From assembly GCF_050920415.1 (NCBI RefSeq), contig NZ_CP169309.1: a stretch of 64,000 bases of DNA. The stretch is one strand, 5' to 3'. A program made the translations under genes and the position numbers. Positions 57,998-59,217 of this stretch are shown piece after piece (position 1 is the first letter of the stretch; each line of letters starts with the position of its first letter). The notes beneath the pieces are model-generated. The model was given only the letters and a program-made list of their open reading frames with translations, had not been told where the DNA came from and searched no databases. Origin of the DNA: Escherichia coli (GTDB lineage: Bacteria; Pseudomonadota; Gammaproteobacteria; Enterobacterales; Enterobacteriaceae).

Positions 57998-59217
57998 TCA
58001 GTCGGTTACATTGTAAGCCTTCCCGAATTGTCCAATGATAACCTTCCTTCCAGTCTCAATCTGCGCATCAACAAAATCCGCCCAGGACTGAAGCATCTCC
58101 CGGCGCTGATTCAGGTACTCCGCGCGGTTGTAGACACCGCGAACGCCGCCGATCTTATGCGCGAGGCATTTCTCCACCCAGTCGGAGTTGTAGCCTTGCT
58201 CATGGAGCAATGTGCTGGCAGTACGTCGGAAGTCATGAATAACAAAATCCCTGACGTTCAGATCCAACGTACGCACCGCACAGTTCAGCGTTGTTTTGGA
58301 GATCGGGCGTCGGTGGTCGTTTCGGCTGGGGAAGACGTATGGAGAATCTCCGGCCAGAAATTTTAACTCTTCGAACATCGCCAGCGCCTGCTTTGACAGC
58401 GGAACAATATGCGGGTTATCCATCTTCATTCTTTCGCCGGGGATACGCCATTCCAGCGCGTTGAAGTTAACTTCACTCCATGTCGCTTCAATCATCTCCG
58501 ATTTACGCACCATGCAGATGATCAGCAGGTGCAAAGCCAGCTTGTGGCGTCGGTTCATATTAGAGGTGTAGATCCCCCGTAACAGGATGCCGATCTCTTC
58601 TGCTGTTAGCGCCACGTCACGGCTTGTTGCTTGTGCGATATAACGGGCCTCGATAGCGGCTGCCGGGTTGTTGAAGATGATTCCCCTGGAAATCGCATAG
58701 GCCAGCATACGTTTAAGCACGTTGCGCGTCAGTAGCGCGACGTGATCCGAACCTCGTTGTTTGATGCGGTCGAGCACGACCTGAATGTGAGCAGTTGTGA
58801 GTTCTTCGAGTTCCAGCTTCCCGATGATGGGAATGATGTCCTTCTCGATAATGCGAGTGATGTTGCGCGGATCGCGGTTACTTTTTTCAACGATATCGGT
58901 CAGCCAGCGTTGGCGAATGTTTTGACTGTCGTTGGGTCTTTCTGTTTAAGCTTTTCTTCCTGCTTTTTCTGCGCGGGATTGATGCCATGAGCAACCATTG
59001 AGCGACACTTTTCACGCCAAAGCCGTGCTTCTGCAAGTGAGAAAGCCGGGTATTCGCCCAGCGTGATCTTTTGCGATTTGTTGTCAAAGCGGTAGCGGAA
59101 ACGCCAGATTTTTCGTCCGGTGGGAAGAACTTCAATCACCAACCCGTCATGATCGGCAAGTTGCCAGGGGCGGTTTCTGGGAGTAAGTGTGCGTATTTTG
59201 GTATCTGAAAGTGCCAT
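57998..59217 (-). pseudogene. P4-type tyrosine integrase, split by a frameshift
   Basis: N-terminal ORF 58900..59217 (MALSDTKIRTLTP…, arm-binding domain) and C-terminal ORF 57998..58777 (catalytic core with HDFRRT and GVYNRAEY) are in different frames; the C-terminal frame stays open upstream to about 58910, placing a single indel near 58895..58915. Confidence 0.75.

What the first reader, a model, noticed from the sequence alone, without database searches (positions are those of the whole stretch)
57998..59217. P4-type integrase split by a single frameshift near 58895..58915
The arm-binding N-terminal part (58900..59217) and the catalytic part (57998..58777, with the R..HxxR..Y signature including HDFRRT and a catalytic Tyr in GVYNRAEY) are both recognisable but sit in different reading frames. 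The catalytic frame remains open upstream into the region where the N-terminal frame ends (…TFANAG*). This is either a genuine inactivating indel that immobilises the island or a homopolymer sequencing error.
Basis: seen in the sequence. Interest (0 to 1): 0.5.

Follow-up and report, generated by a model that had tools for sequence, protein, structure and literature searches.

The report
Frameshifted integrase of a retron island
The integrase gene of a small, decaying mobile island that carries a phage-defence retron next to the E. coli mnmE gene has been broken by the loss of one base; many independent genome assemblies carry the same loss, so it is a real but ordinary pseudogene, and RefSeq already flags it.

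Summary
A 406-codon P4-type tyrosine integrase lies on the minus strand at 57998..59217. It is split into a 105-aa arm-binding ORF (58900..59217) and a catalytic part in the -1 frame. Alignment to an intact E. coli orthologue (strain RM9088, 95% DNA identity) shows a single missing G between window 58910 and 58909: GCCAA[G]CGCTGG. This is not a homopolymer.

Putting the G back gives one open frame that is 98% identical to intact Salmonella integrases. All three Pfam domains are present and the catalytic R-K-H-R-H-Y residues are intact.

The same truncated ORF is listed in 126 blocks of a public assembly collection. Five other assemblies fetched, some made from raw sequencing runs (Logan) and some from NCBI, all carry the same deletion. 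They differ from the window by 0 to 107 SNPs nearby. It is therefore a real allele fixed in a lineage, not a sequencing error. I found no slippery site or long homopolymer that could support recoding.

The island (52617..59560) sits at the 3' end of mnmE and has other damage: a truncated primase, a nonsense codon in the helicase and a 19-bp loss at attR. Its retron-Sen2/St85 cargo is intact. NCBI's PGAP annotation already calls the gene "frameshifted". Ordinary; low interest.

The parts
57998..59217 (-). Integrase pseudogene (P4-type / DUF4102-type tyrosine recombinase). It is 1220 nt; 1221 nt and 406 codons once the missing G is restored.
   Evidence: PGAP calls it 'frameshifted'.
58900..59217 (-). 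N-terminal ORF of 105 aa, holding the arm-type DNA-binding domain plus linker. It ends at a TGA created by the frameshift.
   Evidence: Pfam PF13356. The matching domain structure is 3jtz.
58909..58910 (-). Site of the 1-bp deletion. A G is missing between A58910 and C58909 (GCCAA[G]CGCTGG), at codon 103 (Lys in intact relatives).
57998..58946 (-). Catalytic-frame open stretch, covering the core-binding and catalytic domains. The longest ORF with a start codon is 57998..58777. R238, K265, H328, R331, H354 and Y363 are all intact.
59545..59560 (-). attL core CCAGCTTCTGTATTGG, inside the last codons of mnmE. Homology to E. coli genomes without the island stops at the mnmE stop codon (59538..59540).
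52617..52629 (-). attR core remnant CCAGCTTCTGTAT. The next 19 bp expected from the empty site (TGGTAAGTAACCGCGCTTA) are missing.
59233..59351 (-). Three exact ATGGACACA repeats just upstream of the int start codon, the only three in the 64-kb window. Related GGACACAAAAA copies lie at 59419 (+) and, near attR, at 52699 (+). These are candidate arm-type integrase sites; this is inferred.
55775..57906 (-). Intact retron-Sen2/St85 cargo: msr 57837..57906, msd (Rfam STnc400) 57710..57834, RcaT-like effector 56710..57672, reverse transcriptase 55775..56710.
   Evidence: Operon order as in doi 10.1101/2020.06.22.160168.
54705..55106 (-). Primase remnant. Only about the C-terminal 100 residues of a 327-aa Zn-ribbon/Toprim primase remain.
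53649..54701 (-). RepA/AAA_25 helicase pseudogene, with a CAG-to-TAG nonsense codon at 54198..54200.
52923..53116 (+). C4-type antisense RNA (53032..53116) and its a1/b1 target motif (52923..52974), overlapped by a degenerate 'ash' ORF. This is immunity-type RNA of P1/P4-like elements.
59538..60902 (-). mnmE, the intact host gene whose 3' end is the integration target.

Best explanation
This is a genuine pseudogene. A P4-type tyrosine integrase lost one G at codon 103, in the linker between its arm-binding domain and its core-binding domain. Translation from the normal start now ends after 105 residues, giving the arm-binding domain alone. The core-binding and catalytic domains lie in the -1 frame with no start site of their own. 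An arm-dependent integrase needs all three domains in one polypeptide to bridge arm and core sites, so the element can no longer excise or integrate by itself (inferred). The allele is fixed in an E. coli lineage. The roughly 6.9-kb island at the 3' end of mnmE is a decaying remnant: its primase, helicase and attR junction are also damaged. Only the retron-Sen2/St85 anti-phage toxin-antitoxin cargo stays intact. In short, a mobile-element-borne defence system has become a fixed chromosomal locus.
For: The lesion is shown directly. There is a single 1-nt gap against the intact RM9088 gene. The repaired ORF is 406 aa, 98% and 96-97% identical to intact Salmonella integrases, with Lys103 and the invariant F101 and W105 restored. 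The three Pfam domains are present, and the six catalytic residues lie in invariant alignment columns.

The lesion is not a sequencing error. The exact 105-aa product is listed in 126 blocks of the assembly collection. Assemblies SRR28422105, SRR27683422, SRR29147792, AP025751.1 and NEMK01000025.1 all contain the deleted DNA string. They differ from the window by 0, 1, 3 (plus one gap), 39 and 107 mismatches in the flanking 11-14 kb aligned, so they are not all the same strain.

The frameshift is old enough to have diverged afterwards. In L007 the post-frameshift part has gained V167M, R192C and V250F at positions unchanged in the two intact Salmonella genes compared, while the 105-codon N-terminal ORF has only two synonymous changes.

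The island has other damage: a primase stub, a helicase TAG codon and 19 bp missing at attR. The retron is intact and 95.7% identical to the S. Typhimurium locus. PGAP labels the gene 'frameshifted'.
Against: No raw reads or expression data were available. Loss of excision is inferred from what is known of lambda and P4-type integrases, not measured. An integrase supplied in trans by a related element could in principle still act on the att sites, although attR is also damaged here. The window's own catalytic part has no further lesions, so within this clade the frameshift may be fairly recent.
Confidence: 0.9

Rival explanations
1. A sequencing or assembly error, such as a homopolymer or methylation-site indel in a long-read assembly. 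On this view the real gene is intact.
For: Single-base indels are the commonest assembly error. Only one of 5426 complete RefSeq E. coli genomes carries this allele.
Against: The deleted base sits in AA-G-CG, not in a homopolymer. The identical deletion occurs in five other assemblies, including short-read-run assemblies (Logan) and two NCBI genomes, and the truncated product is listed in 126 collection blocks. These loci differ from one another by SNPs, so they are not copies of one record.
Confidence: 0.02
2. Programmed recoding: a -1 ribosomal frameshift or transcriptional slippage produces full-length integrase at a low, regulated level from the split gene.
For: The two frames overlap by about 44 nt and the required shift is -1. 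Some mobile-element genes, such as IS3 transposases, use -1 frameshifting; one is annotated in L004.
Against: There is no X XXY YYZ slippery heptamer in frame anywhere in the N-terminal ORF. The longest homopolymer in the 44-nt rescue zone is A4. Every intact relative is a single ORF with one extra G. In L007 the downstream part has gained three non-synonymous changes at otherwise conserved positions.
Confidence: 0.03
3. Exaptation: the 105-aa arm-binding fragment is kept as a stand-alone DNA-binding protein. It could, for example, bind the GGACACA repeats around its own promoter and the att arms, acting as a regulator or as an inhibitor of related integrases.
For: The ORF keeps its start codon and an upstream GAGGTGA. 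The arm-binding domain is an autonomous fold (3jtz and 3ju0 are solved as isolated domains). Its candidate sites are clustered next to it. In L007 the fragment has 0 non-synonymous and 2 synonymous changes, against 3 non-synonymous and 2 synonymous downstream.
Against: The counts are far too small to show selection. Salmonella lineages instead keep arm and catalytic domains and delete the middle, so there is no consistent pattern of keeping the N-terminal fragment alone. Simple decay explains everything seen.
Confidence: 0.05

Closest known systems
Integrase of the Salmonella enterica retron-Sen2 (St85) locus, the gene next to STM3845/STM3846
   Same: It is 96-98% identical in protein sequence. 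It occupies the same position immediately after mnmE, has the same attL sequence, and has the same neighbouring msrmsd-rcaT-rrtT operon, with 95.7% DNA identity.
   Different: The Salmonella copies examined (L013-L016) are intact 406-aa genes; the window copy lacks one G. Other Salmonella lineages carry a different lesion, an in-frame deletion of about 128 aa covering the central domain.
Phage P4 integrase (NP_042035) and the DUF4102/CP4-57-type integrase subfamily
   Same: The three-domain architecture is the same (Arm-DNA-bind_3, central SAM-like domain, catalytic domain). The match is full-length with E = 5e-61. Repeated arm-type motifs flank a short core, and the target is the 3' end of a host gene.
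   Different: Identity to P4 Int is only 29%. The target is the protein-coding gene mnmE rather than a tRNA gene; no tRNA is found in the window. The element has no sid, delta or psu genes, and its replication module is a separate primase plus an AAA_25 helicase, not the P4 alpha protein.
Defence-carrying satellites and islands with a variable cargo slot next to the integrase (P4-like hotspots, PMC9122126; E. coli defence islands, PMC10121019)
   Same: Relatives with the same integrase and att site carry different cargo beside int: retron-Sen2, another reverse transcriptase with a PRTase-like protein, a BrxR-like regulator with a KAP NTPase, or an ATPase with an HNH nuclease.
   Different: I did not show that this element is a satellite, and no capsid-hijacking genes were found. 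The mnmE site is not mentioned in the main text of PMC10121019.

Membership tests
Tyrosine recombinase / phage integrase superfamily (Pfam PF00589) | A significant match to the catalytic-domain profile. | tested here: met
   PF00589 at residues 204-365, E = 7.6e-22. There are weak full-domain matches to lambda Int structures 1p7d and 1z1b.
Tyrosine recombinase / phage integrase superfamily (Pfam PF00589) | The catalytic residues R...K...HxxR...H/W...Y are present. | tested here: met
   R238, K265, H328, R331, H354 and Y363 are present and lie in invariant columns across 12 homologues. They are assigned by motif position and H-to-Y spacing, which is established knowledge for lambda Int, not by experiment.
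Tyrosine recombinase / phage integrase superfamily (Pfam PF00589) | A single uninterrupted reading frame encodes the DNA-binding and catalytic domains, i.e. a functional gene. | tested here: not met
   The 1-bp deletion at 58909/58910 separates the arm-binding domain from the rest. This makes it a pseudogene of a family member.
P4-type (DUF4102 arm-binding) integrase subfamily | An N-terminal Arm-DNA-bind_3 (PF13356) domain followed by the central domain PF22022. | tested here: met
   PF13356 at residues 3-88, E = 1.2e-24; PF22022 at residues 100-190, E = 2.7e-12. The N-terminal domain matches the CP4-like integrase structures 3jtz and 3ju0.
P4-type (DUF4102 arm-binding) integrase subfamily | Full-length homology to P4 Int itself. 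| tested here: met
   BLASTP gives 29% identity over 420 columns, E = 5e-61. It is a distant member, not an orthologue.
P4-type (DUF4102 arm-binding) integrase subfamily | Catalyses integration and excision between att sites made of a core plus arm-type repeats. | not testable with these tools
   The att core repeat and the GGACACA repeats were located. No activity data are available.
P4-like phage satellite (int, alpha, epsilon, alpA, sid, delta, psu) | Presence of the helper-manipulation genes sid, delta and psu, and of the alpha primase-helicase. | tested here: not met
   No such genes are annotated or called in the window island or in its intact relatives. The replication genes are Zn_Ribbon_Prim/Toprim_3 plus AAA_25. 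The only shared features are the integrase type, an Ash-family ORF and a C4-type RNA.
Retron-Sen2/St85 (the cargo, not the finding itself) | msr-msd ncRNA, then an RcaT/STM3845-family effector, then a retron reverse transcriptase, in one operon. | tested here: met
   Rfam msr scores 74.2 bits and STnc400 122.9 bits, both above their gathering thresholds. PF28093 and PF00078 hit the two ORFs. PGAP names them 'retron St85 family'. The operon order is as in doi 10.1101/2020.06.22.160168.

The most novel reading that the evidence does not exclude
The frameshift is not mere decay but produces a retained stand-alone arm-binding protein of 105 aa. This protein would bind the GGACACA repeats at the island ends and at its own promoter. 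It could lock the retron island in place or interfere with incoming elements that use the same mnmE att site, as a form of integrase-derived 'att-site immunity'.
Probability: 0.04. Interest if true: 0.45.

Novelty: already known. Interest (0 to 1): 0.12.

Why it matters
The finding matters little in itself. Frameshifted integrases in decaying islands are common, and RefSeq already flags this one. It does give a clean, dated example of a defence system becoming a fixed chromosomal locus, here retron-Sen2, better known from Salmonella. The integrase broke first, because that lesion is shared by diverged carriers. The backbone and attR decayed afterwards. Salmonella lineages disabled the same integrase in a different way. 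The comparison also shows that retron-Sen2 arrived on an integrase-borne element that targets the 3' end of mnmE, whereas a recent paper describes it as 'inserted directly in the chromosome' (PMC11701397).

Tried and rejected
1. A scan for -1 slippery heptamers across the whole N-terminal ORF found none. By eye, the longest homopolymer in the 44-nt rescue zone is A4. The A6 run at about 58883..58888 lies after the frame-0 stop, and the A5 run further upstream lies before the last stop of the catalytic frame. Recoding is rejected.

2. An exact look-up of the repaired 406-aa protein found no gene on record. No extant intact progenitor identical to this allele was found; the nearest intact proteins are 98% identical and from Salmonella.

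3. I tried to define an undamaged attR from RM9088. Its right end is rearranged, with further defence-like genes and a ShET2 pseudogene, so it was uninformative. Salmonella L013/L014 and E. coli L007 were used instead. The Salmonella empty site was not examined, so the exact extent of the core beyond CCAGCTTCTGTATTGG is not settled.

4. No tRNA target exists in the window.

5. A literature search for an mnmE/tnaA hotspot in the E. coli defence-island survey found no mention in the main text. One broad search returned only papers on MnmE enzymology.

6. I checked whether the cargo is retron-Eco9. It is not: Eco9 is only 43-49% identical to Sen2, whereas the window retron is about 96% identical in DNA to Sen2.

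Full report
**Where the window comes from.** The 1351-bp region around the finding matches E. coli strain MFDS1022581 (NZ_CP169399.1) at 100% identity. Only 4 of 5426 complete E. coli genomes contain this integrase at all. The window is the reverse complement of the last 64 kb of that record, with gene order dnaA side, rpmH, rnpA, yidD, yidC, mnmE, island, tnaC, tnaA. PGAP already annotates the gene at window 57998..59217 as 'tyrosine-type recombinase/integrase, frameshifted'.

**The observation.** On the minus strand there is an ATG ORF of 105 aa at 58900..59217 that ends ...TVKTFANAG*. The catalytic frame is open from about 58946 and the N-terminal frame closes at 58900, so the two overlap by about 44 nt. 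The description and coordinates are correct.

**The exact lesion.**
- Alignment to the intact orthologue of E. coli RM9088 (407 aa, 95% DNA identity, same chromosomal position) shows one internal gap in 1240 columns. RM9088 reads GCCAAGCGCTGG and the window reads GCCAA-CGCTGG.
- The missing G lies between window 58910 and 58909. Its neighbours are A and C, so this is not a homopolymer.
- Re-inserting the G gives a single 406-codon ORF with no other stop.
- The repaired protein is 98% identical to a Salmonella enterica integrase (P0001) and 96-97% identical to a S. Typhimurium one (P0002). The restored residue is Lys103, as in both, and it lies between the invariant F101 and W105.
- Pfam finds Arm-DNA-bind_3 at 3-88, Phage_int_M at 100-190 and Phage_integrase at 204-365. 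The break therefore falls at the start of the core-binding domain.
- R238, K265, H328, R331, H354 and Y363 are all present and invariant among 12 homologues. The catalytic Tyr is the first Y of GVYNRAEY.
- P4 Int itself aligns over its full length at 29% identity, E = 5e-61. 'P4-type' is correct as a subfamily label, not as orthology.

**Real mutation or sequencing error?**
- An exact-sequence look-up of the 105-aa product finds it in 126 blocks of the public assembly collection. Six representative places were returned: three assemblies of sequencing runs (SRR28422105, SRR27683422, SRR29147792), two further NCBI assemblies (AP025751.1, NEMK01000025.1) and the source genome.
- All of them contain the deleted DNA string ACATTCGCCAACGCTGGCTGACC, whereas RM9088 has the G.
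- They are not all copies of one strain. Over the 11-14 kb aligned around the island they differ from the window by 0, 1, 3 (plus one gap), 39 and 107 mismatches.
- One has an IS3-family insertion that replaces the island backbone, and one has a truncated retron effector.
- The deletion is therefore a genuine, inherited allele, and the sequencing-error alternative is rejected.
- In the most diverged carrier (L007), the part downstream of the frameshift has acquired V167M, R192C and V250F at positions unchanged in the two intact Salmonella genes compared. The 105-codon N-terminal ORF has two synonymous changes only. This fits relaxed constraint after the frameshift, although the numbers are small.

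**Recoding.** Rescue would need a -1 shift within the 44-nt overlap. No X XXY YYZ heptamer occurs in frame anywhere in the N-terminal ORF. The longest homopolymer in the overlap is A4. All intact relatives are plain single ORFs. Programmed frameshifting or transcriptional slippage is very unlikely.

**The island around the gene.**
- Similarity to ordinary E. coli genomes stops exactly at the mnmE stop codon. An unoccupied site (L011) has mnmE followed about 240 bp later by tnaC.
- The insert is bounded by a direct repeat. CCAGCTTCTGTATTGG lies inside the last mnmE codons (attL, 59545..59560), and CCAGCTTCTGTAT lies at 52617..52629 (attR).
- Intact Salmonella relatives have the full 16-bp repeat at both ends.
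- In the window, the attR junction lacks the 19 bp (TGGTAAGTAACCGCGCTTA) that the empty site predicts. L007 lacks only 2 bp there but already has the frameshift. This suggests the frameshift came first and the attR loss later.
- No tRNA gene is present in the window. The target is the 3' end of a protein-coding gene, which the island reconstitutes.
- Three exact ATGGACACA repeats, the only ones in 64 kb, lie within 120 bp upstream of the int start codon. GGACACAAAAA copies lie near both att ends. By analogy with the annotated arm repeats of P4 attP, these are probably arm-type sites; this is inferred.
- Inside the island, in order from int, are:
  - an intact retron-Sen2/St85 operon: msr 57837..57906, msd (also modelled in Rfam as STnc400) 57710..57834, an STM3845/RcaT-family effector 56710..57672, and the reverse transcriptase 55775..56710;
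  - an EFASI RNA;
  - a primase reduced to its last ~100 residues;
  - a RepA/AAA_25 helicase with a CAG-to-TAG codon at 54198..54200;
  - a small ORF, an Ash-family fragment and a C4-type antisense RNA with its a1/b1 target motif.
- Intact relatives in Salmonella encode a 327-aa primase and a 350-aa helicase. RM9088 carries an independent nonsense codon in the helicase.
- The window's island therefore has at least four disabling lesions. The retron is untouched and 95.7% identical in DNA to the S. Typhimurium locus, which lies at the same place after mnmE beside a 96-97% identical intact integrase.
- Retron-Sen2 is an experimentally characterised tripartite toxin-antitoxin and anti-phage system with operon order msrmsd-rcaT-rrtT (doi 10.1101/2020.06.22.160168).

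**Mechanistic reading.**
- Shown: the gene is split by a 1-bp deletion, the allele is inherited, and the rest of the mobility and replication backbone is damaged.
- Inferred from established knowledge of lambda and P4-type integrases: arm-dependent recombination needs the arm-binding, core-binding and catalytic domains in one chain. An isolated arm-binding domain can bind DNA but cannot recombine.
- Inferred for this allele: the element cannot excise or integrate by itself. The catalytic part has no obvious translation start; gene callers choose an internal GTG or ATG that would also lack part of the core-binding domain.
- Net effect: a defence cargo is fixed in the chromosome.

**Relatives.**
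- Elements with the same integrase family and att site carry different cargo next to int:
  - hypothetical proteins, plus an ATPase and an HNH nuclease further along, in RM9088;
  - a different reverse transcriptase with a PRTase-like protein in tcmA_3 and PSS-15;
  - a BrxR-like regulator and a KAP NTPase in Salmonella.
- This resembles the cargo hotspots described for P4-like satellites (PMC9122126). However, the element lacks sid, delta, psu and the alpha protein, so I do not file it as a P4-like satellite.
- Some Salmonella lineages carry an in-frame deletion of about 128 aa that removes the integrase central domain (P0021, P0028, P0068). The integrase of this retron island has therefore been disabled more than once.

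**Verdict.** The homopolymer-error alternative is refuted. This is an ordinary pseudogene that RefSeq already annotates, sitting in a decaying island. The interest is low. The only reading with some novelty is that the 105-aa arm-binding fragment is retained for a function of its own, and it has no real support.

Noticed in passing
window 55775..57906 (-): An intact copy of retron-Sen2/St85 (msr, msd, RcaT-like effector, RT) in E. coli, about 95.7% identical in DNA to the S. Typhimurium locus. It is far closer to Sen2 than the published E. coli homologue retron-Eco9, which is 43-49% identical in protein.
   Followed up: partly
window 57710..57834, both strands: The Rfam family STnc400 ('Gammaproteobacterial sRNA') matches at 122.9 bits on the minus strand and 70 bits on the plus strand, exactly on the msd hairpin next to msr. 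STnc400 appears to be the msd part of this retron's ncRNA rather than an independent sRNA.
   Followed up: no
L002/L012, L003, L004, L013, L014 (relatives at the same mnmE att site): The slot next to this integrase holds different cargo in different strains: retron-Sen2; another RT with a PRTase-like protein and an HTH protein; a BrxR-like regulator with a KAP NTPase; or hypotheticals with an ATPase and an HNH nuclease. It behaves as a cargo hotspot on an integrative element that targets the mnmE 3' end.
   Followed up: partly
P0021, P0028, P0068 (Salmonella enterica proteins): Integrase variants of 278-280 aa with an in-frame deletion of about residues 98-226, the whole central core-binding domain. 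This is an independent way of disabling the same integrase in Salmonella lineages.
   Followed up: partly
window 52617..52629 versus L011 and L007: The attR junction lacks 19 bp expected from the empty site. L007 lacks only 2 bp there. Small deletions seem to recur right at the core/B' boundary.
   Followed up: partly
window 54198..54200 and 54705..55106 (-): The helicase has a CAG-to-TAG nonsense codon, while RM9088 has a different stop at codon 66. The primase is cut down to its C-terminal ~100 residues, and the PF12835 'Integrase_1' gene found in relatives is absent.
   Followed up: yes
L006 (AP025751.1) 10546..10911: In this otherwise near-identical carrier the RcaT-like retron effector is called as only 121 aa instead of 320. 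This resembles the toxin-inactivating suppressors described for retron-Sen2.
   Followed up: no
L007 (SRR27683422) 12746..13851: An IS3-family element replaces the whole primase/helicase/ash part of the island in a more diverged chromosomal background that still carries the same integrase frameshift.
   Followed up: partly
window 55042..55172 (-): An EFASI RNA (RF02957, 90.2 bits) lies in a roughly 630-bp backbone segment (55016..55646) that is 96-97% conserved in all relatives examined, upstream of the replication genes. Its role is unknown.
   Followed up: no
window 52923..53116 (+): A C4 antisense RNA (71.9 bits) and its a1/b1 target motif (46.9 bits) lie near attR, overlapped by the ORF annotated as an 'ash family' fragment. 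The Ash annotation may partly reflect the RNA locus.
   Followed up: no
literature, PMC11701397: [quoted passage not shown] The comparisons here show it lies on an integrase-bounded island with att repeats at the mnmE 3' end.
   Followed up: partly
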